Source of the DNA: Alphaproteobacteria bacterium
Lineage (GTDB): Bacteria; Pseudomonadota; Alphaproteobacteria; UBA7887
Direction of reading: 5' to 3'
Length of the DNA: 64,000 nucleotides
NCBI GenBank assembly: GCA_965200095.1
Contig: OZ241350.1
Span: 1,334,853 to 1,398,852 of the forward strand
The position numbers and the translations under genes are program-made. How positions within the stretch are numbered: position 1 is the first letter of the stretch; the number at the start of each line of letters is the position of its first letter. Below the pieces are notes generated by a model. That model worked only from the letters and a program-made list of their open reading frames with translations, made no database searches and had not been told where the DNA came from. Shown here in pieces: positions 2,727 to 63,840 of the stretch.

Positions 2727-3554
2727 CTACCAGGGTTTGGCCGCCCCGGAGTCGCGCATCCGCGCCTGGCGCCATTGCTGGCGCAGCGCTTCGGCGGCCT
2801 GCGCCCGGTCGCGCGCCAGATCGACCGTCTCCTGCGCCTGCTCGGCGGTCATTTCGCGTTGCGCCCCTCCCGCCCGGGTTTGCGCGGAGTCGCTCTGCGA
2901 CGGCGCGCCCTGCGGCGCCTGTTCGCCCCGGGCCCCTTCCGGCTCCAGTCCTCGATCGGCGGCGTCCTCGCTTTCGCGCGAACGGTCGCTGTCGGAGCGC
3001 TCGTCGAACGCCTGCCCCTGATTTTGCGACGGCGTGACGTCGACCGCCTCGGGGTTCTGGATCCCCTGCATCCGCTGGCGTCGCAATTCGTCGTGCATGC
3101 GGTCGGCGAGTTCCAGGTTGTACATCGCGTCGGCGAGGTCCGGGTCCAGCGCCAGCGCTTCGCGGTAGCTGCGCATGGCTTCGCGGATCGGGCTTACCGC
3201 GTCGCGGAAGGTGCGCATGGCGTTGATCGCCACCCGGTATTGCACATTGCCGAGGTTGTAATGGGCGCGCGCCGCGAGCCGCCGGTCGTCGGTGTCGATG
3301 GCGCGCACGAACGCCGCGCGCGCCGCCTTGAGCTCGTGCAGTTTGAACAGCGCCGCGCCGCGGTTGAACGCGACTTCCGGCGCGTCGGGCAAGGCGTCGA
3401 GCGCCAGTTCGTAGAGGTCGGCGGCGTCGCGGTAGCGCTCCTCGACATAGGCGGCATTGCCCAGTTCGACGGCCTGCCACGGGGTTTCGACATCCTCGAA
3501 ACCGCAGAGAACCAACGCCGCTACCGCCGCCGCGAGAGCGCGAAGAGCGAACAT
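2727..3554 (-). CDS. TPR-repeat protein (BatC-like) with an acidic/Gln-rich C-terminal tail
   Basis: N-terminal signal/TM, TPR-like repeats ('YNLGNVQY', 'AMYNLELAD'), and its position after two VWA genes in a MoxR operon. Confidence 0.65.
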   Translation of the reverse strand: MFALRALAAAVAALVLCGFEDVETPWQAVELGNAAYVEERYRDAADLYELALDALPDAPEVAFNRGAALFKLHELKAARAAFVRAIDTDDRRLAARAHYNLGNVQYRVAINAMRTFRDAVSPIREAMRSYREALALDPDLADAMYNLELADRMHDELRRQRMQGIQNPEAVDVTPSQNQGQAFDERSDSDRSRESEDAADRGLEPEGARGEQAPQGAPSQSDSAQTRAGGAQREMTAEQAQETVDLARDRAQAAEALRQQWRQARMRDSGAAKPW

Positions 3555-11140: not shown

Positions 11141-11403
11141 GCGGGCCTTGCCGCCCTGCGCGCCGACATCGCCGCCCTTGACGCGAAGATCGCCGCACTC
11201 AAGGCCGACCTCTACCGCGCCTTGCGGATACAGGGCGCCGGTCTCGTCACCGTCATGGTGGGGATCGAGTTCTTCGGATAGCCCGGCGTCGCAGCCCGCG
11301 CCGGGCTCGACGCCCCGGGGGCCGCGCGCCGTCGGGAGGACGGGGGCGCGGCGGCGAATTTCACGAACCCGCCGCTGACCGGGACAATCGCGTTCGCCAC
11401 GGC

Positions 11404-12803
11404 TGTCGAGAACAATCGGAATTGACCGGTTTAGGTACCAAACGAGTTGACCGCTTCGGTTTGGCCCGTGTTCCGGCTTCCGAGCCGGCGGCCGCCGGCT
11501 CGGAAGCCGGAACACGGGCTGGCCGCGTCGAAGCGGGTTACGCGGCTTCCTCCCTCTCGCCTTCGATGAGCCTTCCTTCCCTGTCGTAATCCGCCAGCCG
11601 GCGCGGGCCGGCGAAGACCGCCAGACCGCCATCGGGATACTCGTGCACCCGGACCCGGCTCTTCACATAGTGGCGCCGATGCATGTCCGGCGGGATCGAA
11701 AGCGTCAGACGCTTGTAGCGCACCGTGTTGTCGTTCCCCACAACCCGGTCCTCCTGCACGCACAAGATGTCCGCAAGCGCCCCCGCGCCCGCCCACGGCA
11801 CGAACGCCGAACCCTCGCCTTCCGCCGGAACCGCAAACCGCGCGTTGTGCGAAGGCACAAACGCATCCCGCAGAAAGCGGTTCGCCGACACCATATCCTC
11901 GACCCCGGCAAGGCGCAGTTCCTGAGGCAAACGCTGTTGCAGCGTCCCGAACATGCGCTCCGACCGGCCCCGCGCTTGCGGCGTGTAGGCCGCGATCAAA
12001 TCGATGCCCAGATGCGCAAGCGCCCGACCGACCTGCGTCGGCTTCTCCTTGTCCACCTTCCCCCCGGCCTCCGGCGTGCGCCAGTAGTGGCTCCCGCGAT
12101 CCGCATAGAGCGAGCAGAACAGGCCATGCGCCTCAATCACCTCGCGCAAAGCCGAAAAACTGCTCATCGTCCCCTCCTCGGACACGAAAAACGCCGAGTA
12201 AATCTCGCTCGTCGCATCGTCCATCGTCACAATCAGGTCCCACCAACGCCCCGAAACCCACTCATGCCGCGACCCATCCCGGTGCAGCATCATCCCGGGC
12301 AACGCACGACGCGCGCGCTTGCGACGATGCGCCCCGCGACGCGGGGCCGCGCGAACCCGGCCATGCGCCTGCAGCGTCAGACGAACCCAGTTGTAACTCC
12401 GACGCACGCCGTGCTCCGACACCAGCTTCTCGTGGAAGTGCTTCGACGTGAAATCCCAGTAGCGCGTGTCGAACAAATCAAGCACACGCGCAACCTCGTC
12501 AACCGCAGCGCGACGCGACGACACACGACCGAGACGGCGGTCGTAAAGCCCCTCCGCTCCCTCCGCCTCATACCGGTCACGCCAGCGCCGGAACGTCCGC
12601 TCGCTGATGCCCAGAACCTCCGCAGCCTCCAGCTGGCTCAACGCGCCGCCGCGCGTTCGTCCGTAAACCTCCTCAAACCTCATAAGGCGTAGTCCCCGAT
12701 CCTGCTCCGTCCGACCCATCCCCCAGCCCTCCACAGAACAAAAGGGGCATGATCCGGACAGAACGCCTGGTACCTACACCGGACAAATCACATGTTAGCG
12801 ACA
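11404..12803 (-). mobile_element. IS481-family-like insertion sequence, copy 1 (1400 bp), flanked by a 6-bp direct repeat CACGGC
   Basis: Imperfect terminal IRs cTGTCGagAACA ... TGTTagCGACA start with TGT. Target duplications CACGGC at 11398-11403 and 12804-12809. Carries a 398-aa HTH + rve (DDE) transposase. Confidence 0.7.
11538..12734 (-). CDS. DDE transposase (HTH + integrase-core, IS481-like)
   Basis: N-terminal HTH 'LSQLEAAEVLGISERTFRRWRDRYEAEGAEGL'. 398 aa, identical to the copy at 13522..14718. Confidence 0.7.
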   Translation of the reverse strand: MEGWGMGRTEQDRGLRLMRFEEVYGRTRGGALSQLEAAEVLGISERTFRRWRDRYEAEGAEGLYDRRLGRVSSRRAAVDEVARVLDLFDTRYWDFTSKHFHEKLVSEHGVRRSYNWVRLTLQAHGRVRAAPRRGAHRRKRARRALPGMMLHRDGSRHEWVSGRWWDLIVTMDDATSEIYSAFFVSEEGTMSSFSALREVIEAHGLFCSLYADRGSHYWRTPEAGGKVDKEKPTQVGRALAHLGIDLIAAYTPQARGRSERMFGTLQQRLPQELRLAGVEDMVSANRFLRDAFVPSHNARFAVPAEGEGSAFVPWAGAGALADILCVQEDRVVGNDNTVRYKRLTLSIPPDMHRRHYVKSRVRVHEYPDGGLAVFAGPRRLADYDREGRLIEGEREEAA

Positions 12804-12844
12804 CACGGCTTGCAGGCGGCCCCGCGCCGGGTTATCGTCGCCGC

Positions 12845-13303
12845 ATGACTGTCGCCGACATCCCGGCCGGCTTCGATACGCTCGCCGCAACCCGCGATCT
12901 CGAAGCGGCCGGTATCGAACGCCGCCACGCCGAAGCCGTCGTCGCGGTCGTGCGCGCCAGCCGCGCCGGCCTGGCCACGAAGGCCGATCTCGACAACCTC
13001 GAAGCGCGGATGGGCGGACGTTTCGCAGAACTCCAGGCGCAGATGGACGGGCGCTTCGCAGAACTCCAGGCGCAGATGGACGGGCGCCTCGCGGAATTCG
13101 AAGCGCGGGTGAACGGGCGTTTCGCGGAATCCGATGAGCGGGTGAACGGGCGCTTCGCGGAATCCGATGAGCGGGTGAACGGGCGCTTCGCGGAACTCGA
13201 AGCGCGGATGCTCAAGGTCGCCATCTCCATCGTGCTGGCGCAGACCGCGTTGACCGTCGGCCTGACCTTCGGGTTGCTCAAGCTGTTCGGAGGCGCGCCA
13301 TGA
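12845..13303 (+). CDS. DUF1640-like tail-anchored coiled-coil protein, paralog C (152 aa, six 11-residue repeats)
   Basis: '...EARMGGRFAEL QAQMDGRFAEL QAQMDGRLAEF EARVNGRFAES DERVNGRFAES DERVNGRFAEL' then a TM. Lies between the two direct IS copies. Confidence 0.6.
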   Translation: MTVADIPAGFDTLAATRDLEAAGIERRHAEAVVAVVRASRAGLATKADLDNLEARMGGRFAELQAQMDGRFAELQAQMDGRLAEFEARVNGRFAESDERVNGRFAESDERVNGRFAELEARMLKVAISIVLAQTALTVGLTFGLLKLFGGAP

Positions 13304-13387
13304 ACACGGCGACCTTCGACACTCATGCGGCCCTCAGGGCGCTCACCCGCGCCGGCTGAAACCGCGGGTTCGCCTCCGGCAAGCCTC

Positions 13388-14787
13388 TGTCGAGAACAAT
13401 CGGAATTGACCGGTTTAGGTACCAAACGAGTTGACCGCTTCGGTTTGGCCCGTGTTCCGGCTTCCGAGCCGGCGGCCGCCGGCTCGGAAGCCGGAACACG
13501 GGCTGGCCGCGTCGAAGCGGGTTACGCGGCTTCCTCCCTCTCGCCTTCGATGAGCCTTCCTTCCCTGTCGTAATCCGCCAGCCGGCGCGGGCCGGCGAAG
13601 ACCGCCAGACCGCCATCGGGATACTCGTGCACCCGGACCCGGCTCTTCACATAGTGGCGCCGATGCATGTCCGGCGGGATCGAAAGCGTCAGACGCTTGT
13701 AGCGCACCGTGTTGTCGTTCCCCACAACCCGGTCCTCCTGCACGCACAAGATGTCCGCAAGCGCCCCCGCGCCCGCCCACGGCACGAACGCCGAACCCTC
13801 GCCTTCCGCCGGAACCGCAAACCGCGCGTTGTGCGAAGGCACAAACGCATCCCGCAGAAAGCGGTTCGCCGACACCATATCCTCGACCCCGGCAAGGCGC
13901 AGTTCCTGAGGCAAACGCTGTTGCAGCGTCCCGAACATGCGCTCCGACCGGCCCCGCGCTTGCGGCGTGTAGGCCGCGATCAAATCGATGCCCAGATGCG
14001 CAAGCGCCCGACCGACCTGCGTCGGCTTCTCCTTGTCCACCTTCCCCCCGGCCTCCGGCGTGCGCCAGTAGTGGCTCCCGCGATCCGCATAGAGCGAGCA
14101 GAACAGGCCATGCGCCTCAATCACCTCGCGCAAAGCCGAAAAACTGCTCATCGTCCCCTCCTCGGACACGAAAAACGCCGAGTAAATCTCGCTCGTCGCA
14201 TCGTCCATCGTCACAATCAGGTCCCACCAACGCCCCGAAACCCACTCATGCCGCGACCCATCCCGGTGCAGCATCATCCCGGGCAACGCACGACGCGCGC
14301 GCTTGCGACGATGCGCCCCGCGACGCGGGGCCGCGCGAACCCGGCCATGCGCCTGCAGCGTCAGACGAACCCAGTTGTAACTCCGACCCACGCCGTGCTC
14401 CGACACCAGCTTCTCGTGGAAGTGCTTCGACGTGAAATCCCAGTAGCGCGTGTCGAACAAATCAAGCACACGCGCAACCTCGTCAACCGCAGCGCGACGC
14501 GACGACACACGACCGAGACGGCGGTCGTAAAGCCCCTCCGCTCCCTCCGCCTCATACCGGTCACGCCAGCGCCGGAACGTCCGCTCGCTGATGCCCAGAA
14601 CCTCCGCAGCCTCCAGCTGGCTCAACGCGCCGCCGCGCGTTCGTCCGTAAACCTCCTCAAACCTCATAAGGCGTAGTCCCCGATCCTGCTCCGTCCGACC
14701 CATCCCCCAGCCCTCCACAGAACAAAAGGGGCATGATCCGGACAGAACGCCTGGTACCTACACCGGACAAATCACATGTTAGCGACA
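13388..14787 (-). mobile_element. IS481-family-like insertion sequence, copy 2 (100% identical to copy 1), flanked by a-GCCTC / c-GCCTC
   Basis: The 1984-bp offset from copy 1 is conserved throughout, with identical ends. 5/6-bp direct repeat; the surrounding target shows a GCCTCCGGCAA tandem duplication. Confidence 0.7.
13522..14718 (-). CDS. DDE transposase (IS481-like), copy 2
   Basis: Differs at one residue (G vs R) from the ORF at 11538..12734. Confidence 0.7.
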   Translation of the reverse strand: MEGWGMGRTEQDRGLRLMRFEEVYGRTRGGALSQLEAAEVLGISERTFRRWRDRYEAEGAEGLYDRRLGRVSSRRAAVDEVARVLDLFDTRYWDFTSKHFHEKLVSEHGVGRSYNWVRLTLQAHGRVRAAPRRGAHRRKRARRALPGMMLHRDGSRHEWVSGRWWDLIVTMDDATSEIYSAFFVSEEGTMSSFSALREVIEAHGLFCSLYADRGSHYWRTPEAGGKVDKEKPTQVGRALAHLGIDLIAAYTPQARGRSERMFGTLQQRLPQELRLAGVEDMVSANRFLRDAFVPSHNARFAVPAEGEGSAFVPWAGAGALADILCVQEDRVVGNDNTVRYKRLTLSIPPDMHRRHYVKSRVRVHEYPDGGLAVFAGPRRLADYDREGRLIEGEREEAA

Positions 14788-14804
14788 CGCCTCCGGCAAG
14801 CCTC

Positions 14805-14833
14805 TTGACTTTCGGCGCCCGCTTTGCTATAAG
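14805..14833 (+). promoter_or_regulatory. Sigma70-type promoter for NHLP precursor 2: -35 TTGACT, 17-nt spacer, -10 TATAAG
   Basis: TTGACT at 14805-14810 and TATAAG at 14828-14833, 18 bp beyond the IS copy 2 end. The 5' UTR has the hairpin GGGGATGCAGCATCCCC (14846-14862) and an SD GAGGAGG (14876-14882). Confidence 0.6.
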
Positions 14834-14890
14834 CCCTCTCGTATCGGGGATGCAGCATCCCCTGAGGGACAAAGTGAGGAGGATGGCGTC

Positions 14891-15214
14891 ATGAACGAGT
14901 CCCCGCTCCACGCGATATCGAACATCTACCATGCGGATGCCGGCTTCCGCGCCGAGGTGGAAGAGGACGCGAAGTCCGCGCTGGCGACGAAGGGGCTGGA
15001 AATCCACGGACCGGCCGAGGTGAGCGTGGCCGTGGACACCGAAGACACGGTGCATGTGGTGTTCCCGCCGGACCCGAACATGGCGCTCCCCGACGGCGCG
15101 CTGGACGCCGTCTCGGGCGGCTGGGGGGGGTACCCCAACGGCTACACCTACAACGGCAACTACTACTCGACCCGCCAGCTCTCCGCCGGCGGCATGTACG
15201 ACTCTTCGCGCTAA
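14891..15214 (+). CDS. NHLP-family RiPP precursor 2; core WGGYPNGYTYNGNYYSTRQLSAGGMYDSSR
   Basis: Leader 'MNESPLHAISNIYHADAGFRAEVEEDAKSALATKGLEIHGPAEVSVAVDTEDTVHVVFPPDPNMALPDGALDAVSGG' is about 60% identical to the precursor 1 leader. The core is completely different. 107 aa. Confidence 0.85.
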   Translation: MNESPLHAISNIYHADAGFRAEVEEDAKSALATKGLEIHGPAEVSVAVDTEDTVHVVFPPDPNMALPDGALDAVSGGWGGYPNGYTYNGNYYSTRQLSAGGMYDSSR

Positions 15215-37644: not shown

Positions 37645-40600
37645 TCAGAAACGCGCCGAGAGGCTCAGGCCGCCTCCGAACCCGTCGCCGACACTGCCTC
37701 CGGTCGCGTAGTTCGCGGAAGCCTGTAATGCGAAGCGGCCCTCGCCCCAGCCGTGCGCGGCGCCCAGGGCGAAACGCGCGCCCGTGGTCTCCGGCGACGC
37801 CTTCAGCGGCGTCCCCGCAACCCGTATCCCGGTCTCCCCCGAAAACTCGTGCGTCGCCTCCGCGGAACCGACCACGCGAAACCCGTCCGACCCGCCGGGC
37901 GCCAGCGCCACGCTCACGCCGGCACGGCCCGTCAGACTTTCCGCATCCTCCATCGACACCAGGGTCGCCGCCCGCGAATCCGCGAAATCGCTCAGCGACA
38001 CCCGCGACCAGACGAGACCGGCGCGCGGCGTCAGCGTCACGTTTTCGGTCAGCGCCATGGGCCGCCCGGCCTCCGCCGCCAGCGCATAGCCTATCCCCGT
38101 GACGCCGTCCTTCAGCATCCGCCCGGTCGCCGATGTCAGTTTCACGTCGTAGCGGGTTCCTTGCGCCGAGGCGTCGACATAGACGCCGGGGCCAACGACC
38201 GCCGAGCCGTACAGGCTTACGCCCATGCCCGACAGTTCGACCTTGCCGCCGTTCTGCGTCATGTCCGCCGAACCGCGCAGCCCGTGCGCCGACAGGCCGA
38301 AGCGGCCGGTTTCGCCCACAGGCCTGTCCACGCCGACGCGCACGCCGCTGCGGGCGCGGTCGTAAGCGACGCCGGCGCGGGTCGACGAATCGGCCTTCCA
38401 TTCGCCGCGGGCAGTCTCGACCCGCGCCCAGCCGCCGGCCTCGCTGCGCGCCGCCGCCATACGCTCCTCGTAGGTCGGAAGGCCGTTCATTGCCAGCAGC
38501 ACCGAAGGCAGCGCCTCGTAGAGGCGGCAACGGTCATCCGACATCCCGGCCATGTCGCAATCGAACGACGCCGGATCCTGCTGCCGCCCGCCGCCGCTCG
38601 TATCGTCTTTCTTTTCCTCATCCGGTCCTCCCCCATTGTCCTTCGGCGTCGGCGGAAGGCTTTCGGTGTTCGGACTGCCGTCCCCGGTGAGAGCGACGGA
38701 CCTCGTGTGACCGGTGAGGCCCTCGTCATCGGTTGCGGCGAAGACGACCCGGTCGTTCGCGATGCCGTCGCCGCCGATGCCTCCCTGCACCCGCGCCGCC
38801 GCAGCATCGGCGGCCTCCTTCGATATCCGGCGGTCGACCCTCGTGTCGGCGGGCACATGCAGGACCACCGTGGTCGTCCGTGTGTCATTGGGCGTCGCCT
38901 TGCCGGCATGGATGGCCCGCGTCGCGCCGTTCGCCGTCACACGGCCCGTCAGGCCGACGGTGACCGTGCCGCCGCCGGTCACGTCGACGGCAGCCCGTGC
39001 GCCCGCGCCGCCCCTCACCTCGCCGTGAATGACGATCTCCGAACGTCCGGGGTCGTTGACCAGGACTGCGCGGCCCGAAGAACCTGCAAGCACCTTGCCC
39101 TTTTCGCCAACGATCAGCGCGCCGCCGCCCGACAGGTGAACCGCCGCATCCGTTCCGCCCGTCACCGTGCCGTGCACCGTGACGAACTGCCGCCGCAAGG
39201 CCAGTGTGGCGTCTTCGTCCAGGTAGAGGGCCTTGCCCCAGGGCGAGTCCCCCGCGATTTCGCCCATGCCCGCATTGACGGCGTAGACGCCGGCCACGTC
39301 GCCGGCGACGGTCGCGCCCTCGGCCACGGTCACTTCGATGCGTCCGTTACTGTTGTGGGGCGTCGTGAAATAGGCGCGGACGCCGTCGCCGCGGGAATCT
39401 ATCGAGCCCCCGTTCACGGCGATGCGGACGTTAGCCGGGTTGAAGGATTTCTTGAGAGTGTCGCGCACTGCTGTCTTGTATGCGTCGGAGAAACCCGCTT
39501 CGGCGTCGTTGAGCGCCGCCTCGACATCGCCGCCCGTCGCCAACGCTACGTGCACCGGCCTCTCTTTCTCAGCGCTGATCGACGCCAACAAATCGGTCAG
39601 CAGGCGCCAGTACGCGGGACCGGCGCGAAAGTCCAGGAATCTTCGGATCTCCCCCTCATCGTAAGCGCCATCACCGTCACGGTCTATGCCGGCCGCGCGG
39701 GGAATGTCGATGCTTGCATTTTTTGCATTGGTTAGCACCGCCCGGAGCCGCGTTACGACGGCCTCGAACCAGGGGCCCTCGATCACACGCCGGTAATCTT
39801 CCACGCCCTCCACAGCGCCAGGATAGTCGCCACTCGCTACCCCAGGGCTCCAGTCAGTCCTGGCTTGGACCTCGATGCCTGCCGGCCGCCCCCAGCGGTA
39901 GAGTTTTTGACTCTCCACCACCGCCACGGTACTACGGGCATTTGCGATATCATGCGCCACATGGCCGCCGTCGAACGACGCCCTCAACCTGTCTGTATCG
40001 TTCCCGGCAGTTCCTCTTCGGTGGTCGAAGGTTCCTGTCCACGCGATGTCGACCACGGGCTGCGCCAACGCTGCGGGCCTCTCTCCTATCTCGAAAAGGT
40101 TAGGGATTTCAGCATAGATGCCCGTGCGGCCCGAAATCGCCCCGGCCTGGATGATTTTTAACGGTCGTCCGAACGTGTCGGAGTTGGAGCTATTCTTGAC
40201 GGCGTGGATCCCGGCATTATGCTTCGAGACAAGTATTGCGCCTGGAGAGACTTCAGTGGAGCCATAGTCGCCACTCCAGATTATAGCGGATTGATAGACG
40301 TCGTTCAAATTCTCGTAACTGCCGAACCGGCCGTTTACCGAGATCGATCCGCCTGTGACGATGATCGAGACTGGCCCGCGTGAGCCGGCCGAAGCCTGAA
40401 TGCCCGCCGTGGTTGCCATAATGTCGCCGCTGTTGACGACCATGATCTCCCCTTCTGCGCCGCCAGAAATGCCGACGCCAACTCTCGAGTCAGCGGCGCC
40501 AATGCTGCCGCTATTGGTGATAAACATTTCCGTAGGGGAGTAGTTCCCGAGTGCGATGCCTGTCCCGGCTACTATAATGTTGCCGCTATTGGTGATTGTA

Positions 40601-41721
40601 ACGCGGCCGCCGCTGAGGTCTTGACGCCAAGATCCCAAATCGACATTGATGCCCGTTCCAAAACTCCCGTTCGCTGTGCCGATGATATCGCCGCTGTTGG
40701 CGATCATGGTGTTGCCCGATGGTTCTTCCTGATATTCGACGACGATACCGTATGCATGATATTCATCCGACTTCTCGGTCGGTCTCCTCACTATTGTTCC
40801 TGCGTTGGTGACGGCGATGGTTCCGCTCGTGTTACCTACGTCCGTCAGCTGGGCATGAATGCCGTGACTGCCGGGATCGGCGGTCTCGACCGTCAGCGTC
40901 ACGCCCTTCGAGACGCTGATTTCCACCGATCCGGCCTCGTAGTTGATCGCTTCGATGGCGGTAGTATGCGACACGATTGACCCGGCCGTGACGGAGACCC
41001 TGGCGAGGCCTGCGTTCGTAGGCGGGACGTATTGTTCAAGTGGGTCACGGCCGAGGTTGGCTTCGTCCCGGTAGGTGCCTACATGCGCCACGATGCCCTT
41101 TCCGGGGGAGTCGATGTTGCCGCTGTTGGCTACCGTGATGCCGCCGGAGCCTTTATTGACGCCGGATATACCGGGCGATGCCGCGTAGGAGTAGATCGTG
41201 GCTGCGTTGGTGATGGAGGCATCGCCGGCCGTAACGCCGTCCACAACGACATCGATGCCGCCGCTCACCCGGGCGGTCGCCGTCCCGATCGTCACGCCGC
41301 TTCGCACGTCCAGCGTTGTCGTGGATCCGTTTCCGGTCCTCTGCCGGATCCGAATGCCACGACTCGCGTCGCTGCCGGCGCCCGGCCGGACAACGACCGC
41401 GCCCTCGCTGCCGACCGTGACCCCGATGTTGCGGACCTCGGTCGCATGATTTGCGGTCTGGACGGCAATGGCGCCATAGGAGCCGCCTGTGATCGTCGTC
41501 GCCGCGCCGCCCACGACATCGAGCGTGACGGCGCGCTCCTGGTTCCAATAGGCGATGCCGCTGGGGTACGCCTGGTTCGCGCAGGTGAAAACGCCGTCGG
41601 TCGGAGTCGCCCCGCATTCGTTGACCGCCCGCGCCGCGCCGGGAGCGAGAAGCGCCGCCGCGAACGCCAGCGCGCAACACATCGACGCCCAAAATCGAAC
41701 CGCTCGCTTGCATGCAGACAT
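37645..41721 (-). CDS. Autotransporter adhesin-like protein (signal peptide, ~1000-aa Gly/Thr/Asn-rich beta-helical passenger, C-terminal beta-barrel ending ...SARF)
   Basis: Start chosen at M32 'MSACKRAVRFWASMCCALAFAAALLAPGAARA' with SD AAGAGGA. The C-terminal ~280 aa has an alternating beta-strand pattern and a terminal aromatic residue. Confidence 0.8.
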   Translation of the reverse strand: MSACKRAVRFWASMCCALAFAAALLAPGAARAVNECGATPTDGVFTCANQAYPSGIAYWNQERAVTLDVVGGAATTITGGSYGAIAVQTANHATEVRNIGVTVGSEGAVVVRPGAGSDASRGIRIRQRTGNGSTTTLDVRSGVTIGTATARVSGGIDVVVDGVTAGDASITNAATIYSYAASPGISGVNKGSGGITVANSGNIDSPGKGIVAHVGTYRDEANLGRDPLEQYVPPTNAGLARVSVTAGSIVSHTTAIEAINYEAGSVEISVSKGVTLTVETADPGSHGIHAQLTDVGNTSGTIAVTNAGTIVRRPTEKSDEYHAYGIVVEYQEEPSGNTMIANSGDIIGTANGSFGTGINVDLGSWRQDLSGGRVTITNSGNIIVAGTGIALGNYSPTEMFITNSGSIGAADSRVGVGISGGAEGEIMVVNSGDIMATTAGIQASAGSRGPVSIIVTGGSISVNGRFGSYENLNDVYQSAIIWSGDYGSTEVSPGAILVSKHNAGIHAVKNSSNSDTFGRPLKIIQAGAISGRTGIYAEIPNLFEIGERPAALAQPVVDIAWTGTFDHRRGTAGNDTDRLRASFDGGHVAHDIANARSTVAVVESQKLYRWGRPAGIEVQARTDWSPGVASGDYPGAVEGVEDYRRVIEGPWFEAVVTRLRAVLTNAKNASIDIPRAAGIDRDGDGAYDEGEIRRFLDFRAGPAYWRLLTDLLASISAEKERPVHVALATGGDVEAALNDAEAGFSDAYKTAVRDTLKKSFNPANVRIAVNGGSIDSRGDGVRAYFTTPHNSNGRIEVTVAEGATVAGDVAGVYAVNAGMGEIAGDSPWGKALYLDEDATLALRRQFVTVHGTVTGGTDAAVHLSGGGALIVGEKGKVLAGSSGRAVLVNDPGRSEIVIHGEVRGGAGARAAVDVTGGGTVTVGLTGRVTANGATRAIHAGKATPNDTRTTTVVLHVPADTRVDRRISKEAADAAAARVQGGIGGDGIANDRVVFAATDDEGLTGHTRSVALTGDGSPNTESLPPTPKDNGGGPDEEKKDDTSGGGRQQDPASFDCDMAGMSDDRCRLYEALPSVLLAMNGLPTYEERMAAARSEAGGWARVETARGEWKADSSTRAGVAYDRARSGVRVGVDRPVGETGRFGLSAHGLRGSADMTQNGGKVELSGMGVSLYGSAVVGPGVYVDASAQGTRYDVKLTSATGRMLKDGVTGIGYALAAEAGRPMALTENVTLTPRAGLVWSRVSLSDFADSRAATLVSMEDAESLTGRAGVSVALAPGGSDGFRVVGSAEATHEFSGETGIRVAGTPLKASPETTGARFALGAAHGWGEGRFALQASANYATGGSVGDGFGGGLSLSARF

Positions 41722-41783
41722 GATGCCGTCCTCTTTATGTTCCGGCGTCGCGCGAGGTTTGGCCCCGGGCGAACCGTTCCCTA

Positions 41784-41808
41784 CCCCCCCCCCCCCCCCC
41801 CCCCCCCC
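41784..41808. repeat. Homopolymeric C(25)/G(25) tract 63-87 bp upstream of the autotransporter start codon
   Basis: Uninterrupted run of 25 C on the plus strand, on the promoter side of the minus-strand gene. Confidence 0.95.
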
Positions 41809-42091
41809 GGTCAAGGCCTGAAATTTTTTTTACGGGCGCAATGGCCTTGAATACGGCGCCCGGCGAAGCTCCGGCCTTGCCGCGATGCTGCGGATCCCCC
41901 GGCGATCGTTCCCGGGAGCAAACCTGCCCTCGCGGATGCGGCGGGCGTCTCGCCGGGATTTTCGTAGTTCGCGCTACGCGCGCATGCCGGCGAGACGCCG
42001 GCGCTCCCGGGAGGGCGCGTCCGGGAGCGCTTGACCGGGCGGCGGGGCGGGGCTACCACCCGGCGTTCGCGATATTCGGGGAGGCGGCGCC

Positions 42092-43339
42092 ATGAGTGCA
42101 CGCGGCGCATATTTCGACGGACTCGAAACCCGCGACCCGGAAGCGCGCGAAGAGGCGACCTTCGCAGCGCTGCGCGACGTGATCGCGCTGGCGCAGGAAA
42201 AAAGCCCCGCCTGGGCGCGCATCCTCGACGGCGTCGACGCCGCCGCGGTGCGCGACCGCGCGGCGCTGGCGACGCTGCCGGTCACCCGCAAGGCGTCCCT
42301 GGGCGGCCTCCAGGGCGAAACCCCGCCGCTCGGCGGCCTGACGACCCGCGCGCCGGGAGAACTGAGCTGGATCTTCTCGTCGCCGGGGCCGATCTACGAA
42401 CCGGGAATGCGGCGCGACGACTATTTCCGCATGGGCCGCGCCTTCCACGCCGCGGGGATGCGCCCCGGCGACATCGTCTACAACACCTTTTCGTATCATC
42501 TCACCCCGGCGGGCCACATGGCCGAAAGCGGCGCGCATGCCTGCGGCTGCGCCGTGGTTCCCGGCGGGGTGGGCAACACCGAACAGCAATTGCGCGCGGT
42601 CGCCGACATCCGCCCCAACGCCTATGCGGGCACGCCCTCCTTTCTGCGCATCCTGCTGGACCGGGCGGACGAAGCGGGCCTCGACGTCTCGTCGCTCACC
42701 CGCGCCGCCGTCGGCGGGGAGGCGCTGCCGCCGAGCCTGCGCGAGCGCTTCCGCGCCCGGGGGATCGGCGTCCTGCAATCCTACGGCACCGCCGAGGCCG
42801 GGCTGATCGCCTACGAGTCGGAGGCGCTCGAGGGGATGATCGCCGACGAGGGAGTCATCGTCGAAATCGTCGCCCCGGGGACCGGGGACCCGGTCGCCGA
42901 GGGCGAGGTCGGCGAGGTCGCGGTTACGGTGCTCAACCCCGACTATCCGCTGATCCGGTTCGCGACGGGGGACCTGTCCGCGACGCTGCCCGGCCCGTCG
43001 CCTTGCGGGCGCACCAATTTGCGCATTGCCGGCTGGATGGGACGCGCCGACCAGACGACGAAAGTGCGCGGCATGTTCGTCCATCCCCTCCAGGTGCGGC
43101 AGACGGCGGCGCGGCACCCCGAGATCGTCAGGGCGCGGCTGGTGGTGGACAACCCCGACCATGCGGACCGCATGGTTCTGCGCTGCGAGATCGACGGGGC
43201 CGGCGGCGATGCGCTGCGCGCCCGCGTCGCGGAGTCGCTGCGGGCGGTGTGCAAACTGCGCGGCGAGGTCGAGTTCGTCGCCCGCGGCGCGCTGCCCGAC
43301 GACGGCGTCGCGATCGAGGACTCGCGGGTGTTCGAATAA
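42092..43339 (+). CDS. Phenylacetate-CoA ligase-like adenylate-forming enzyme (PaaK/F390 synthetase family)
   Basis: 'NTFSYHLTPAGH', 'SYGTAEAG', 'RTNLRIAGWMGRADQTTKVRGMFVHP'. Confidence 0.8.
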   Translation: MSARGAYFDGLETRDPEAREEATFAALRDVIALAQEKSPAWARILDGVDAAAVRDRAALATLPVTRKASLGGLQGETPPLGGLTTRAPGELSWIFSSPGPIYEPGMRRDDYFRMGRAFHAAGMRPGDIVYNTFSYHLTPAGHMAESGAHACGCAVVPGGVGNTEQQLRAVADIRPNAYAGTPSFLRILLDRADEAGLDVSSLTRAAVGGEALPPSLRERFRARGIGVLQSYGTAEAGLIAYESEALEGMIADEGVIVEIVAPGTGDPVAEGEVGEVAVTVLNPDYPLIRFATGDLSATLPGPSPCGRTNLRIAGWMGRADQTTKVRGMFVHPLQVRQTAARHPEIVRARLVVDNPDHADRMVLRCEIDGAGGDALRARVAESLRAVCKLRGEVEFVARGALPDDGVAIEDSRVFE

Positions 43340-59816: not shown

Positions 59817-61094
59817 TCAGTCGGCGAGAGCGGCGAAGTATCGGTCCACCGCGTCGACGATGGCGCGCAACGCCGGCTCCCGACCCTCGCGCGTGCCCAG
59901 AAGCCTCTCGTCCTCGCGGTTCGACAGGAAGCCGAGTTCGATCAACAGCGACGGGACATCGGGCGCCTTGAGCACCGCGAAGCCGGCCCAGCGATGCGGC
60001 CGGTTTATCGTGCGCACCCGGCGCCGGGCGAACGCCTCGACGACCAGGTCGGCGAGGCGGATGGAATCTTCGTTCGTCTGCCGCTGGCTCCAGTCGATGA
60101 GGATCTGGGTGGTCACGTCGTCCACTTCCGCCATATCGACGCCGCCGATGACGTCGGACCGGTTCTCCTTGGCGGCGAGCGCCACCGCCTCGTCGTCGGA
60201 CGCCTCCTCGGACAGCCTGTAGACGTGACTGCCGCGAAGCCGGGAGTCGTCGATGGAATCGGCGTGGATGGAGAGGAGGAGATCGGCCTCGGCCGTCCGC
60301 GCGATCGCCAGCCGGTCGCGCAGGCCGACGAAGACATCGCTGTCGCGGGTCATGACCACCCGGTAGCGCCCGGTTTCCTCGAGCCGTTCGGCGAGCTGGC
60401 GCGCCGCGTCGAGGGCGAGGTCCTTCTCGAGCGTGCCGACGACGCCGATGGCGCCGGGATCGATGCCGCCGTGGCCCGCGTCGACGACGACGGTCTTCCG
60501 CTCGTCCCGCGGCGGCGACGGCGCGGGAGCCGCGGGCCGGAGCGGCGCGGCCGCCGCGACCTCGCGCTGACTGGCGCGCGCCCATTCGGAAAATGTTTCG
60601 GCGTCGCATCCCTCGATGTCCAGGACGAAACGGGTCGCCCTGCCCCCCCCCGGCGGGATGAGGAAACTGCGTTTGACGCAGGCCGGAGCAGCGAGGTCCA
60701 CGACCATGCGTGTCGTGTCGGGGCGGAACCGTCCGTGCCGGATACCGGTGACGAGGCCGACGGCGCCGCTGGTCTGCGACGCGGCGGCGAAATCGAGTTC
60801 CGGAAAGTCGATGACCAGGCGCTCGGGCGCCTCGAGGGCGAACACCCCGTAGACGACGGTTTCGGCGAGCTCGACGACGATTCTCGTGTGGTCCGCGTGG
60901 ATCCCGAGACGCAAATCGAAGACCGGGATGGCGTCGGCGCGGACGAACGCCGGAATTACGGCGCACGCGGCGGCGACAAGCGCCGCAGCCCGCGGGAAGG
61001 CGACGGCAAACCGCCGACGGCGGGCGCGGCCGCCTCCGTTTTCCCCGATCCGGGTCACCCTTCTCCAGCGCCCCTTTCTTGCGTAGAATACCAT
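59817..61094 (-). CDS. amiC: N-acetylmuramoyl-L-alanine amidase (AMIN domain + Amidase_3, AmiC-like)
   Basis: Signal/TM, AMIN 'TRIVVELAE...FALEAPERLVIDFPE', catalytic 'VVVDAGHGGIDPGA', 'ADLLLSIHADS'. The start at 61094 is uncertain (a later GTG is possible). Confidence 0.8.
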   Translation of the reverse strand: MVFYARKGRWRRVTRIGENGGGRARRRRFAVAFPRAAALVAAACAVIPAFVRADAIPVFDLRLGIHADHTRIVVELAETVVYGVFALEAPERLVIDFPELDFAAASQTSGAVGLVTGIRHGRFRPDTTRMVVDLAAPACVKRSFLIPPGGGRATRFVLDIEGCDAETFSEWARASQREVAAAAPLRPAAPAPSPPRDERKTVVVDAGHGGIDPGAIGVVGTLEKDLALDAARQLAERLEETGRYRVVMTRDSDVFVGLRDRLAIARTAEADLLLSIHADSIDDSRLRGSHVYRLSEEASDDEAVALAAKENRSDVIGGVDMAEVDDVTTQILIDWSQRQTNEDSIRLADLVVEAFARRRVRTINRPHRWAGFAVLKAPDVPSLLIELGFLSNREDERLLGTREGREPALRAIVDAVDRYFAALAD

Positions 61095-61422
61095 ATATAG
61101 GGATGGTAGCGATGGATCGATACCCAATCCGGTGCTATGGCGCGCCCGTTGCCTTCGGTGGCGGGAGCGGGCTATATGGGACGGATGGATGTCCGGTTCG
61201 CGCCCGACGGCGCGCCGGCGGCGTCCGATGCCTCCCGCGGGCGGCGACACGCCGCCGTGGCGGGACGGCTGAGAATTCGCATTCGTGTTCCGCGGCCCCG
61301 GCGCGGGTTGCCGGCGACCTTCGCCGGCGCGCGGCCGTGGCGCCCGACCCGAACGATGCGCGCCTTGCGCGCCCGGCGCCGCTGCGCGACTGCGCGCGGC
61401 GCGACATGGAGACACCCCTGAG
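61095..61422 (+). promoter_or_regulatory. Long (~330 nt) GC-rich intergenic leader upstream of rne (probable autoregulatory 5' UTR)
   Basis: RNase E genes in proteobacteria have long structured 5' UTRs used for autoregulation. An AT-rich 'ccatatatag' lies at its 5' edge. Confidence 0.4.
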
Positions 61423-63840
61423 ATGGCAAAACGTATGCTTATCGATGCGGCCCACGCAGAGGAAACGCGGGTCGTCGTCGTCGACGGCGCCAGGCTCGAA
61501 CAGTTCGATTTCGAGTCCGCCAGCAAGACCCTTCTGAAGGGCAACATCTATCTGGCGAAGGTCGCGCGGGTCGAACCCTCGTTGCAGGCCGCCTTCGTCG
61601 ATTACGACGGCAACCGTCACGGTTTCCTCGCCTTCAACGAGATCCACCCGGACTACTACCAGATCCCCGTTTCCGACCGGCAGGCGCTGCTCGAACAACA
61701 GGCGGCCGACGAGACCGGCGAGGCGCCCGCCGCGGAGGAGACGGCGGAGAACGGCGAGGGCGAGGCGGTCGAGGCGGCGGGCGGACGCGACGAGGACGAG
61801 GCGCCCCGCCGCCCGGCGCCCTCTCCGCGCTACCGCATCCAGGAAGTGATCAAGCGTCGCCAGATACTCCTCGTGCAGGTCGCCAAGGAGGAGCGCGGCA
61901 ACAAGGGCGCGGCGCTGACGACCTATATCTCCCTCGCGGGTCGCTACTGCGTGCTGATGCCGAACACCCTGCGGGGCGGCGGGATCAGCCGCAAGATTCA
62001 GTCCGCCGACGCGCGCAAGCGGCTGCGCTCGGTGGTCGAATCGCTCGACCTCCCCGACGGCATGGCGGTGATCCTGCGCACTGCGGGGCAGAGCCGCACC
62101 CGGGCGGAGATCAAGCGCGACTACGACTATTTGCTGCGGCTGTGGGAGCAGATCCGCGAATCGACGATGGCGTCGACCGCGCCGGCGCTCATCCACGAGG
62201 AAGCGAATCTGATCAGGCGGTCGATCCGCGACCTGTACAATTCGGAGATCGAGGAGGTTCTGGTCGAGGGAGATCCGGGCTACCGCGTCGCCAAGTCGTT
62301 CATGAAGATGCTGGTGCCGAGCCACGCCAAGCGCGTGCAACCCTACCGCGACTCCCTGCCGCTGTTTTCCCGCCATCGGGTCGAGGGCGAGCTCGATTCG
62401 ATGCACGAGGCGACGGTGCAGCTGCCTTCGGGCGGCTACATCGTCATTTGCCCGACCGAGGCGCTCGTAGCGATCGACGTGAACTCGGGCCGCGCGACGC
62501 GCGAACGCAGCATCGAGGAGACGGCGGCGAAGACCAACCTGGAGGCGGCCGCCGAGATCGCGCGCCAACTGCGCCTGCGCGACCTCGCCGGCCTCATCGT
62601 CGTCGACTTTATCGACATGGACGAGGCGCGGAACGCGCGCGCCGTGGAGCGACGCTTCAAGGAGGCGCTGCAATCGGACCGGGCGCGCATTCAGATGGGC
62701 CGGATCAGCGGCTTCGGCCTCCTCGAAATGTCGCGGCAAAGGCTGCGCCCGAGCGTGCAGGAAATCAGTTCCGTGGACTGCTCGCATTGCGCCGGCAGCG
62801 GGCGGGTCCGGTCCGTCGAATCGGCGGCGCTGCACGCTCTGCGCGCCATCGAGGAGGAGGGCGTGCGCGGGCGCGCCGCCGGCGTCAGGGCGACCGTTCC
62901 GCCCGCTGTCGCGCTCTGGCTGATGAACGGCAAGCGGGCGAGCCTCGGCGACATCGAGACGCGCTACGGGATGAAGGTGTCGTTCGAAACCGACGACGCG
63001 CCGGGGGCGCCCGAATGTCGCGTCGAGGTTCTCGATGCGCGCGCGGGCGAAACGGCGGCCCCGGCGGCGGCGCGCGAGGAGGAAGCGCCGAAGCGCCGCG
63101 CGCGGCGGCGGACGCGCGCCGCCGACAAGGCGGGGGACGCCGCCGAAGCGGCGGCGCCCGAAACCGCGCCGGAGGCCGAGGCCGTCGCCGCGGCGGTGAC
63201 CGATTCGACGGACTCCGAGGCCGGCGGCGAGCGTTCCCGCCGCCGCCGGCGCGGCCGCCGGGGCGGCCGCCGTCAGACGCGCGCGCGAGAGGCGGCGAAA
63301 GCGGCGCAGGAGGCGCCCGCGGCGGAGGCCGGCGACCCGCCGGCGGCGGCCGCCGCGCCCGGACCCGCCGAAGGCGCCGAGGCGCCCGCGCAGACGGAGG
63401 CGGTGGAGCCGTCGGTGGCGGGCGCCGCTTCGATCGTGCGCCCGAAACGCCGGCGTCGCGTGCGCAAGGCGAAGCCGAACGCCGGCGAGAACGCCGCCGC
63501 CGTCGCCGGGGAACCGGCCGCGGAAGGCGACGGGAGCGCCGCCGCTCCCGCTGCGGAGGCTGCGGACATCGTGGATATGGCGGATCCCGGAGGCTCCGCG
63601 CCGGCGGACGAGACGCCGCCGGCTGTCGAAGAGACGGCCGCTGGGGAGACGTCCGCGACCGGCCCGCAACGACCTGTCGAGCGCTCCGGCGGTGCGCAGA
63701 GTGCGGCGGCGGACGGTTCGCCCGAGGCCAACGGCGCCGGCGCTCCCGACTCCCCGTCCGACGACGGAAGCGCAATTCCCGACGCGCCGCCGCCGGCGCC
63801 GCGTCGCGGCTGGTGGACGCGCGTCGCCGACGCCTCGTGA
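61423..63840 (+). CDS. rne: Ribonuclease E
   Basis: 'MAKRMLIDAAHAEETRVVVVDG', S1 domain, 'IVVDFIDM', Zn-link 'CSHCAGSG', Arg/Ala/Glu-rich scaffold tail. 805 aa. Confidence 0.92.
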   Translation: MAKRMLIDAAHAEETRVVVVDGARLEQFDFESASKTLLKGNIYLAKVARVEPSLQAAFVDYDGNRHGFLAFNEIHPDYYQIPVSDRQALLEQQAADETGEAPAAEETAENGEGEAVEAAGGRDEDEAPRRPAPSPRYRIQEVIKRRQILLVQVAKEERGNKGAALTTYISLAGRYCVLMPNTLRGGGISRKIQSADARKRLRSVVESLDLPDGMAVILRTAGQSRTRAEIKRDYDYLLRLWEQIRESTMASTAPALIHEEANLIRRSIRDLYNSEIEEVLVEGDPGYRVAKSFMKMLVPSHAKRVQPYRDSLPLFSRHRVEGELDSMHEATVQLPSGGYIVICPTEALVAIDVNSGRATRERSIEETAAKTNLEAAAEIARQLRLRDLAGLIVVDFIDMDEARNARAVERRFKEALQSDRARIQMGRISGFGLLEMSRQRLRPSVQEISSVDCSHCAGSGRVRSVESAALHALRAIEEEGVRGRAAGVRATVPPAVALWLMNGKRASLGDIETRYGMKVSFETDDAPGAPECRVEVLDARAGETAAPAAAREEEAPKRRARRRTRAADKAGDAAEAAAPETAPEAEAVAAAVTDSTDSEAGGERSRRRRRGRRGGRRQTRAREAAKAAQEAPAAEAGDPPAAAAAPGPAEGAEAPAQTEAVEPSVAGAASIVRPKRRRRVRKAKPNAGENAAAVAGEPAAEGDGSAAAPAAEAADIVDMADPGGSAPADETPPAVEETAAGETSATGPQRPVERSGGAQSAAADGSPEANGAGAPDSPSDDGSAIPDAPPPAPRRGWWTRVADAS

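What the first reader, a model, noticed from the sequence alone, without database searches (positions are those of the whole stretch)
41784..41808. 25-nt poly-C tract in the promoter region of a 1358-aa autotransporter: likely phase-variation switch
Homopolymeric tracts of this length are highly prone to slipped-strand mispairing. This one sits 63-87 bp upstream of the ATG of a large surface adhesin-like autotransporter. Length changes would alter -35/-10 spacing, or a regulator site, exactly as with the poly-C tract in Bordetella fim promoters. A 25-mer is exceptional in a genome that is otherwise GC-rich but not repeat-rich.
Basis: partly seen in the sequence, partly recalled or inferred. 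Interest (0 to 1): 0.65.

Follow-up and report, generated by a model that had tools for sequence, protein, structure and literature searches.

The report
Hypermutable poly-G promoter tract, autotransporter gene
A run of 25 G's sits in the predicted promoter of a surface-protein (autotransporter) gene, differs in length between strains of the same uncultured bacterium, and recurs upstream of dozens of related genes, so it is most likely a slippage-driven on/off switch of a well-known kind.

Summary
C25 lies at 41784-41808 (G25 on the coding, minus strand), 63-87 nt upstream of the ATG of a 1358-aa type Va autotransporter. It is the only homopolymer longer than 9 nt in the 64 kb window.

The phase-variation reading is supported by comparison, not by experiment:
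- **Strain variation:** four other assemblies of the same species (flanks 97-99% identical) keep the tract at the same place with lengths 21, 21 and 33. A fifth contig breaks inside it.
- **Promoter setting:** the tract is bracketed by a -35-like TTGACC and a weak -10-like TAGGGA, with an A8T3 run upstream. Several paralogues show a cleaner version, for example TTGACC-cgc-G19-TAAAAT.
- **Family-wide pattern:** 36 of 61 homologous genes in about 15 MAGs carry a G or C run of at least 10 nt within 400 nt upstream, about 86-fold above the rest of those loci.
- **Fast-evolving product:** the passenger domain is a mosaic, hypervariable allele (51-77% nt identity).

Spacers of 21-33 nt predict an OFF or low state in every assembled strain. 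No transcription start site, read-level heterogeneity or expression data exist.

Verdict: a new member of a known kind (porA / tp0126 / fim-type promoter repeat switch). Its interest lies in its length and in the family-wide pattern in probable sponge symbionts.

The parts
41784..41808 (-). Homopolymeric tract: G25 on the coding (minus) strand, C25 on the plus strand. It is the predicted promoter spacer.
   Evidence: Orthologous sites carry G21, G21 and G33.
41809..41814 (-). -35-like hexamer TTGACC, directly 5' of the tract.
   Evidence: Sequence. It is conserved in L002 and L003. The same hexamer abuts the tracts of paralogues. An identical CTTGACC serves the divergent gene.
41778..41783 (-). 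Weak -10-like hexamer TAGGGA, directly 3' of the tract.
   Evidence: Paralogues have TAAAAT, TACAAT or TAAGGT at the equivalent place. Its role as a -10 element is inferred.
41821..41831 (-). A8T3 run 6 nt upstream of TTGACC. It is either UP-element-like or the -10 of an alternative upstream promoter. Its length and composition vary between strains.
   Evidence: A8T3 here, A7T4C4 in L002, A6GT7 in L003, A7T4C5 in L001.
41722..41777 (-). Leader between the tract and the ATG, nearly invariant among 5 strains. It contains the Shine-Dalgarno sequence AAGAGGA (41735-41729).
   Evidence: Alignment A2.
37645..41721 (-). Gene for a 1358-aa type Va autotransporter. Signal peptide is residues 1-32 (41626-41721). 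The beta-barrel is roughly residues 1098-1336 (37714-38430).
   Evidence: The AlphaFold2 passenger model has pLDDT 82.5 and shows a beta-helix.
39352..41382 (-). Hypervariable, mosaic part of the passenger domain (about codons 110-790).
   Evidence: Nucleotide identity to conspecific alleles is 51-77%, against 97-99% in the flanks. L001 resembles the window allele in residues 100-400 and resembles L002 in residues 400-800. dN/dS is about 0.7-1.2, against about 0.3 elsewhere in the gene.
42031..42059 (+). Predicted promoter of the divergent phenylacetate-CoA-ligase-like gene: TTGACC, a 17-nt interrupted G-rich spacer, then TACCAC. It is an 87% inverted copy of the tract promoter.
   Evidence: repeat I1. 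TTGACC-N17-TAACCA is conserved in a sister species.

Best explanation
The G25 run is a hypermutable simple-sequence repeat in the promoter of a surface autotransporter gene. Slipped-strand mispairing during replication adds or removes G's. Because the run forms the spacer between a -35 hexamer (TTGACC, with an A/T-rich UP-like run upstream) and a weak -10 (TAGGGA), its length would set whether RNA polymerase can use the promoter. Lengths near 17 would give ON, and the observed 21-33 would give OFF or low expression. The population would thus hold the gene mostly silent and generate expressing variants at high frequency. Shown here: the tract, its position, its length polymorphism among conspecific strains, its flanking motifs, its family-wide recurrence, and the hypervariability of the product. 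Inferred: the transcription start site, the dependence of expression on tract length, and reversibility of switching.
For: - **The tract itself:** a unique 25-mer, 63-87 nt upstream of a start codon with a Shine-Dalgarno sequence and a signal peptide.
- **Strain variation:** the same site in four other assemblies of the same species carries G21, G21 and G33, and one contig ends inside the run. The 56 nt between the tract and the ATG are nearly invariant.
- **Flanking promoter motifs:** TTGACC abuts the tract 5' and TA... abuts it 3'. The same layout appears in paralogues from other genomes: L080 TTGACC-cgc-G19-TAAAAT, L078 TTGAC-G15-TAAAAAAT, L079 TTGACGC-G12-TGAAAAAT, L026 TTGAC-G15-TATAGAAAAT, L006 TTGAAA-atggc-G13-TAAGGT, L013 TTGACA-ccgcc-G14-ATAAAC, and L041/L066 TTGA-C12-gctggaTACAAT. 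Their spacers are 14-22 nt.
- **Motif enrichment:** 13 of 40 tracts abut a hexamer matching TTGACA at 5 of 6 positions or better, against 0.65% of random positions (p about 3e-19).
- **TTGACC is a genuine -35 in this lineage:** the divergent gene uses TTGACC-N17-TACCAC, and this is conserved in a sister species.
- **Family-wide enrichment:** 36 of 61 family loci have a G/C run of at least 10 nt within 400 nt upstream of the signal-peptide cleavage site. The density is 1.56 per kb against 0.018 per kb elsewhere in the same loci. Several of the 'elsewhere' runs precede an adjacent family gene.
- **Product under diversifying pressure:** the gene is intact in all 5 strains, but its passenger domain is mosaic and fast-evolving, as expected for a surface protein under diversifying selection.
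- **Precedents:** a poly-G between -35 and -10 controls N. meningitidis porA and T. pallidum tp0126. Promoter poly-G tracts control the tpr gene family (PMC7864442). Bordetella fim C-stretches reach C22 (PMC1891110).
Against: - No transcription start site, transcript, read-level or reporter data are available.
- All observed spacers (21, 21, 25, 33) are far beyond the 16-19 nt a sigma-70 promoter tolerates, so no assembled allele is predicted ON. Reaching about 17 would need many slippage steps.
- TAGGGA is a poor -10 hexamer (2 of 6; the consensus scan found no promoter).
- An alternative promoter, TTCAAG-N17-AAAAAT, can be drawn upstream and is kept in three strains. It would put the tract in the 5' UTR.
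- L001 lacks TTGACC before its tract, although this lies in the last 30 nt of a scaffold.
- Homopolymer lengths in assemblies are uncertain by a few bases.
Confidence: 0.6

Rival explanations
1. The tract lies in the 5' untranslated leader rather than in the promoter. Transcription would start from an upstream promoter (TTCAAG-N17-AAAAAT, using the A-run as -10). The G-run would then act at the RNA level, through RNA polymerase slippage or pausing, an RNA G-quadruplex, or mRNA stability or translation. It would still be length-dependent.
For: TTCAAG, a 17-nt spacer and AAAAAT/AAAAGT can be drawn in the window, L002 and L003. The spacing is preserved despite compensating indels (one C fewer, one A more, my reading). 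TAGGGA is a weak -10, and spacers of 21-33 nt are non-functional for sigma-70. In other family members the run clearly lies downstream of a conserved Shine-Dalgarno sequence plus ATG, in the transcribed region.
Against: TTCAAG matches TTGACA at only 3 of 6 positions. Paralogues without any A-run still show the TTGAC-Gn-TAAAAT layout (L078, L080). The enrichment of a -35-like hexamer exactly abutting the tract has no explanation if the tract is simply leader sequence.
Confidence: 0.15
2. The run is a slippage-prone remnant with no present regulatory role. For example, it could be a former spacer switch that has expanded out of range, leaving the gene silent or driven from elsewhere, with its length drifting neutrally.
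For: All four alleles (21-33) lie outside any functional spacer length, whereas paralogue spacers are 14-22. Long runs mutate fast and can random-walk.
Against: An unselected homopolymer should quickly acquire interruptions, yet four strains keep pure runs of 21-33. The ORF is intact in five strains despite heavy divergence, with dN/dS below 1 overall, so the gene is maintained and presumably expressed at times. The family-wide enrichment argues for selection for the tracts.
Confidence: 0.12
3. The G-run works through DNA structure (a G-quadruplex or i-motif) rather than through its length. It might act as a transcriptional block or activator, or as an initiator of recombination that drives the mosaic passenger alleles, as the G4 upstream of Neisseria pilE does.
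For: A run of at least 15 G's can fold into an intramolecular G4 (general knowledge). The gene just downstream is a recombinant mosaic, and the genomes hold many paralogues that could serve as donors.
Against: Many family tracts are only 10-14 nt, too short for a G4, and about half are poly-C on the coding strand. The mosaic region begins about 340 nt inside the gene. No donor-copy relationship was shown.
Confidence: 0.05
4. Sequencing or assembly artefact, such as poly-G from two-colour Illumina chemistry or a homopolymer error in long reads.
For: Long homopolymers are error-prone on every platform. Two contigs end at or near the tract (L001, L004).
Against: The run is internal, with unique and conserved flanks on both sides. 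It was recovered in at least four independent samples and assemblies of different types and at more than 36 paralogous loci in complete MAG chromosomes. Only the exact length is uncertain.
Confidence: 0.03

Closest known systems
Neisseria meningitidis porA (poly-G) and Treponema pallidum tp0126 (poly-G) promoter-spacer switches
   Same: A G homopolymer lies between the -35 and -10 elements of an outer-membrane-protein gene, and its length sets promoter strength, with an optimum at a 17-nt spacing (as summarised in PMC7864442). The predicted layout here, TTGACC-Gn-TAGGGA, is the same type.
   Different: Those tracts are about 8-12 nt and have mapped transcription start sites and reporter data. 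This one is 21-33 nt, longer than any usable spacer, has a poor -10, and has no experimental data.
Treponema pallidum tpr gene family (tprE, G, J, F, I, L) with promoter poly-G tracts
   Same: A paralogous family of outer-membrane proteins in which many members carry an upstream poly-G that varies within and between strains (PMC7864442). Here, 36 of 61 family members carry an upstream G/C run.
   Different: The protein family differs (Tpr porin-like proteins rather than type Va autotransporters). The organism is not a pathogen but uncultured Proteobacteria MAGs. Both G and C runs occur, and at least two tract positions are seen (promoter spacer and N-terminal leader ORF).
Bordetella fim2/fim3/fimX promoter C-stretch
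   Same: A long C/G homopolymer in the promoter region of a surface-structure gene. It is polymorphic between strains and reaches C20-C22 in B. bronchiseptica (PMC1891110).
   Different: The fim promoters are BvgA-activated and carry a 'fim box', and their tract sets the distance between activator site and -10. No such motifs or regulator are evident here. The gene is an autotransporter, not a fimbrial subunit.
Phase-variable autotransporters with intragenic repeats (Bordetella tcfA and bapC; Bartonella badE)
   Same: Autotransporter genes controlled by mononucleotide repeats (PMC1891110, PMC11466379). Some relatives of this gene do have the run inside the 5' end of the reading frame.
   Different: In those cases the run is in the ORF and acts by frameshift. 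In the window it lies upstream of the start codon.

Membership tests
Simple-sequence-repeat (SSR) transcriptional phase-variation locus (contingency locus) | A homopolymer long enough to be hypermutable (usually at least 8-9 nt). | tested here: met
   25 nt.
Simple-sequence-repeat (SSR) transcriptional phase-variation locus (contingency locus) | Tract length is polymorphic among closely related strains while the flanks are conserved. | tested here: met
   25, 21, 21 and 33 in strains whose flanks are 97-99% identical.
Simple-sequence-repeat (SSR) transcriptional phase-variation locus (contingency locus) | Length heterogeneity within a single population, with reversible switching. | not testable with these tools
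   No raw reads are available. The contig breaks at the tract (L001, L004) are only suggestive.
Simple-sequence-repeat (SSR) transcriptional phase-variation locus (contingency locus) | The tract lies within the core promoter (between -35 and -10) or at an activator site. | tested here: inconclusive
   TTGACC abuts the tract 5' and TAGGGA abuts it 3'. The -35 motif is strongly enriched across the family. However, the -10 is weak, no transcription start site is known, the consensus scan found no promoter, and an alternative upstream promoter is possible.
Simple-sequence-repeat (SSR) transcriptional phase-variation locus (contingency locus) | Expression level depends on tract length. | not testable with these tools
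   This needs reporter fusions or transcriptomics.
Simple-sequence-repeat (SSR) transcriptional phase-variation locus (contingency locus) | The controlled gene encodes a surface-exposed or otherwise conditionally useful product. | tested here: met
   It is an autotransporter with a signal peptide and a beta-barrel, and its passenger domain is hypervariable.
Type Va (classical) autotransporter | C-terminal autotransporter beta-barrel domain ending in an aromatic residue. | tested here: met
   PF03797 E=1.8e-31 over residues 1098-1336. TIGR01414 E=1.1e-29. EspP barrel chains in the PDB match at about 2e-10. The protein ends in ...SARF.
Type Va (classical) autotransporter | N-terminal Sec signal peptide. 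| tested here: met
   The N-terminus reads MSACKRAVRFWASMCCALAFAAALLAPGAARA|VNECG. The ..LLAPGxARA|xxECG motif is conserved across the family. This is a heuristic assignment; no dedicated predictor was run.
Type Va (classical) autotransporter | Beta-helical passenger domain. | tested here: met
   The AlphaFold2 model has pLDDT 82.5 and pTM 0.79. It shows beta-helix in residues 1-535 and 730-980 of the passenger, with a helical insert. The Foldseek PDB hits are weak (best Fap2 at E=0.012, then Ag43 and pertactin), so no specific functional subfamily, adhesin or otherwise, can be assigned.
Bordetella fim-type promoter | A C-stretch plus a 'fim box' and BvgA activator sites. | not tested
   No motif model was available. 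The organism is unrelated and no obvious equivalent is present, so this is treated as an analogy only.

The most novel reading that the evidence does not exclude
The window's tract may be one instance of a lineage-wide 'phasome'. A large, rapidly diversifying autotransporter multigene family, with up to about 10 copies per genome in about 15 uncultured Alpha- and Gammaproteobacteria MAGs (probably sponge symbionts), would be individually switched by G/C homopolymers. These appear in at least two positions: as promoter spacers, and inside a conserved poly-proline-encoding leader ORF. That would give non-pathogenic symbionts of an animal without adaptive immunity a combinatorial, stochastic surface repertoire, perhaps shaped by phage or host-phagocyte pressure. 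A more speculative extension is that runs long enough to form G4 structures also seed the recombination that makes the passenger alleles mosaic.
Probability: 0.45. Interest if true: 0.65.

Novelty: new member of a known kind. Interest (0 to 1): 0.5.

Why it matters
Repeat-driven phase variation of surface proteins is textbook biology for mucosal pathogens such as Neisseria, Haemophilus, Bordetella, Campylobacter and Treponema. I found no report of it for uncultured marine or sponge-associated symbionts (literature searches).

If these tracts switch genes as predicted, such bacteria run a stochastic, combinatorial surface programme over a whole autotransporter family. That bears on how symbionts cope with host phagocytosis or phage attack.

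There is also a practical side. These tracts cause contig breaks and mis-called start codons: the 1389-aa 'TTG' frame here is a listed ORF that only runs through the tract. They can also produce apparent frameshifts in MAG annotation.

Tried and rejected
- **Exact-protein look-ups** of the window's autotransporter, its identical hit P0001, the paralogue P0040 and the window's PaaK-like protein found no indexed contig. The source genome could therefore not be revisited.
- **The first genome-contig scan**, using the single protein, found no relative. The window's genome is not in that collection.
- **Two metagenome contigs DNA scans**, using the conserved leader and the 5' coding sequence, found nothing. 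No further alleles came from JGI data.
- **Rfam** found no known RNA family in the window at gathering thresholds. The consensus promoter scan found no sigma-70 match in 41600-42200.
- **A translational (frameshift) switch at this locus** was considered and rejected. The in-frame TTG upstream is just the TTG of TTGACC, it has no Shine-Dalgarno sequence, and its frame is not conserved between G21, G25 and G33. The ATG at 41721 has a Shine-Dalgarno sequence and a signal peptide.
- **An ECF-sigma promoter** (GGAAC directly after the tract) was considered. No matching -10 (CGTT/CGTC) occurs at 16-17 nt, so it was dropped.
- **A terminator role** was rejected, because the neighbouring gene is divergent.
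- **The fold search** gave no significant PDB match for the passenger, so 'adhesin' stays unproven.
- **Literature searches** for the sample and run accessions found nothing. The sponge origin (PANK22-1 taken to be the sponge metagenomes of Pankey et al. 2022) is my inference.

Full report
**Observation.** The plus strand carries exactly 25 C's at 41784-41808, flanked by A and G. In this 64-kb window (70% GC) the next longest homopolymers are C9, G8 and T8, so a 25-mer cannot be chance. My estimate is about 3e-7 per window.

The adjacent gene lies on the minus strand, so on the coding strand the tract is poly-G. The ORF 37645-41721 (-) encodes 1358 aa. It has these features:
- A Shine-Dalgarno sequence, AAGAGGA, 7 nt before the ATG.
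- A typical signal peptide, MSACKRAVRFWASMCCALAFAAALLAPGAARA|VNECG.
- A C-terminal autotransporter beta-barrel: PF03797 at 1.8e-31, TIGR01414 at 1.1e-29, and EspP barrel chains at about 2e-10. The protein ends in ...SARF.

The 1389-aa frame from TTG at 41814 only runs through the tract by chance.

An AlphaFold2 model of the passenger (pLDDT 82.5) is a long beta-helix with a helical insert. Foldseek gave no significant PDB hit. The best, weak ones are the Fap2, Ag43 and pertactin passengers. 'Adhesin' is therefore plausible but not shown.

**Comparison of strains.** A protein search found four orthologues at 75-79% identity in metagenome assemblies, and their contigs were retrieved. The flanking genes are the same: a POR/DUF6537 oxidoreductase on one side, and AMP-binding, SIR2 and TauD genes on the other. 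The flanks are 97-99% identical in nucleotides to the window, so these are strains of one species.

At the same position they carry G21 (L001), G21 (L002) and G33 (L003). The Logan contig L004 ends three G's into the run. The 56 nt between the tract and the ATG are almost invariant. The A/T run just upstream also varies (A8T3, A7T4C4, A6GT7, A7T4C5). Recovery in independent assemblies of different kinds rules out an artefact, though exact lengths may be off by a few bases.

**Anatomy.** On the coding strand the region reads:

...GTAAAAAAAATTTCAGGCC-TTGACC-G25-TAGGGAACGG...(56 nt)...AAGAGGACGGCATC-ATG

TTGACC matches the -35 consensus at 5 of 6 positions, and the A8T3 run sits where an UP element would. 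TAGGGA is a weak -10.

The divergent neighbour is a phenylacetate-CoA-ligase-like gene at 42092-43339 (+). It is preceded by CTTGACC, a 17-nt interrupted G-rich spacer (GGGCGGCGGGGCGGGGC) and TACCAC. This is an 87% inverted copy of the tract promoter. The TTGACC-N17-TAACCA arrangement is conserved in a sister species (L081). So TTGACC is very probably a genuine -35 in this lineage, and G-rich spacers are tolerated.

**The family.** A scan of species-representative genomes with a family alignment returned 73 loci from about 15 complete MAG chromosomes labelled Alpha- or Gammaproteobacteria. Some genomes hold up to about 10 copies. Using the conserved signal-peptide end (..LLAPGxARA|xxECG) as an anchor, the results are as follows.
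- 36 of 61 loci have a G or C run of at least 10 nt (up to 29) within 400 nt upstream. That is 1.56 runs per kb, against 0.018 per kb in the remaining 607 kb of the same loci.
- Several of the 'remaining' runs in fact precede an adjacent family gene.
- 13 of 40 upstream tracts (11 if the three orthologues are counted once) abut a hexamer matching TTGACA at 5 of 6 positions or better. The figure for random positions is 0.65% (p about 3e-19).
- Clean examples are L080 TTGACC-cgc-G19-TAAAAT, L078 TTGAC-G15-TAAAAAAT, L079 TTGACGC-G12-TGAAAAAT, L026, L006, L013, and L041/L066 TTGA-C12-gctggaTACAAT. Their spacers are 14-22 nt, bracketing the functional 16-19.

The window's locus belongs to this 'spacer' class but has a much longer run.

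A second class is poly-C (L031, L034, L036, L039, L042, L056, L074). It has a conserved Shine-Dalgarno sequence plus ATG leader, M[VA]GS[ST]D..., that reads into the C-run as poly-proline. The leader is in frame with the main ORF in 4 of 8 cases. This looks like a translational switch.

**The product is under diversifying pressure.** Within an otherwise 97-99% identical background, codons of about 110-790 fall to 51-77% nucleotide identity. The alleles are mosaic: L001 matches the window allele at 92-98% over residues 100-400 and matches L002 at 92-98% over residues 400-800. dN/dS is about 0.7-1.2 there, against about 0.3 in the conserved parts.

In a sister species the same chromosomal site holds a TIR-domain cassette instead. 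It has no autotransporter and no homopolymer of 8 nt or more in 13 kb. The tract therefore travels with the autotransporter.

**Mechanism.** The best-supported reading (confidence about 0.6) is a slipped-strand switch acting on transcription, most likely by changing the -35/-10 spacing. This is the type described for N. meningitidis porA and T. pallidum tp0126, and the family-wide pattern resembles the T. pallidum tpr genes (PMC7864442). Bordetella fim C-stretches of up to 22 nt show that very long promoter runs occur (PMC1891110).

Under this model all assembled alleles (spacers of 21-33 nt) are OFF or low. That is the main weakness, together with the poor -10 and the absence of any start-site, read or expression data.

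The rivals are:
- A 5'-UTR tract read from an upstream TTCAAG-N17-AAAAAT promoter (0.15).
- A drifting remnant with no present function (0.12).
- A structure-based (G4) role, possibly in recombination (0.05).
- An artefact (0.03).

**Context and novelty.** The contig names (PANK22-1_SAMN...) and the co-retrieved Latescibacterota MAG suggest sponge metagenomes. This is my inference and was not verified. I found no paper describing repeat-driven phase variation in such symbionts. The element is a new member of a known kind. It is of moderate interest on its own and more interesting as part of a family-wide pattern.

Noticed in passing
window 41821-41831: The A8T3 run 6 nt upstream of TTGACC is itself polymorphic between strains (A8T3, A7T4C4, A6GT7, A7T4C5). 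It may be a second slippage-prone element, or an UP element, or the -10 of an alternative promoter.
   Followed up: partly
window 42030-42059 (+): The divergent PaaK-like gene has CTTGACC, a 17-nt interrupted G-rich spacer and TACCAC. This is an 87% inverted copy of the tract promoter. The -35, the 17-nt spacing and the -10 are conserved in the sister species L081.
   Followed up: yes
window 41897-42030: Nested inverted repeats lie in the shared intergenic region: 19-nt arms at 41941-41959 / 41984-42002, 10-nt perfect arms at 42001-42010 / 42021-42030, and a terminator-like hairpin at 41939-41955. The region is 97-100% conserved between strains. Its function is unknown; it could be an operator or a small RNA.
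   Followed up: no
window 39352-41382 (-): The passenger domain is a mosaic, hypervariable allele. It shows 51-77% nucleotide identity to conspecific strains whose flanks are 97-99% identical, and recombination breakpoints are visible between L001, L002 and the window.
   Followed up: yes
L081:580-6000: In a sister species (neighbouring gene 91% identical in amino acids) the same site holds a TIR_2-domain gene plus unknown genes instead of the autotransporter. The site behaves as a variable island, and the cassette may be a defence system.
   Followed up: partly
L031, L034, L036, L039, L042 (two sites), L056, L074: about 2680-2940: A poly-C class of family members has a conserved Shine-Dalgarno sequence plus ATG leader (MVGSSDGRRF.. 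or MAGSTDRR..) that reads into C16-C29 as poly-proline. It is in frame with the main ORF in 4 of 8 cases and terminates early in the others. This is a candidate translational phase switch.
   Followed up: partly
L019:2970-2980; L038:2893-2903; L028:2887-2902: G11-G16 runs lie inside the signal-peptide or N-terminal coding region of some family members. The L019 paralogue L032 lacks the run.
   Followed up: no
L015:about 2980-3000: The reading frame shifts just after ..LLLAPG relative to the paralogue L022. This is either a pseudogene or an assembly error within the signal peptide.
   Followed up: no
L011, L018, L052, L053 (about 2770-2850): In this subgroup G11-G14 is directly preceded by CCCCCTCCCCATC, which would form a C/G hairpin. 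This context differs from the -35 spacer class.
   Followed up: no
L016:7791-7815; L023:7634-7658; L073:7545-7570 and 2690-2710; L080:about 1270-1300: A REP-like palindromic element, GTCATTCCCGCGAAAGCGGGAATCC (ATTCCC-N8-GGGAAT), recurs next to C/G runs in several MAGs.
   Followed up: no
L003:2757-2856: A 100-bp insertion lies in the intergenic region upstream of the A/T run, relative to the window and L002.
   Followed up: no
window 11400-12900 and 13384-14884: There is a tandem duplication, 95% identical at an offset of 1984 bp. Each copy carries a 398-aa ORF with HTH_29/HTH_28/HTH_23/HTH_32 domains, which looks like an IS630-type transposase.
   Followed up: partly
window 60643-60651 and 15123-15130: The C9 run lies inside the AMIN/Amidase_3 (AmiC-like) gene 59817-61547 (-), between its two domains. 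The G8 run lies near the 3' end of a plus-strand ORF that ends at about 15215.
   Followed up: partly
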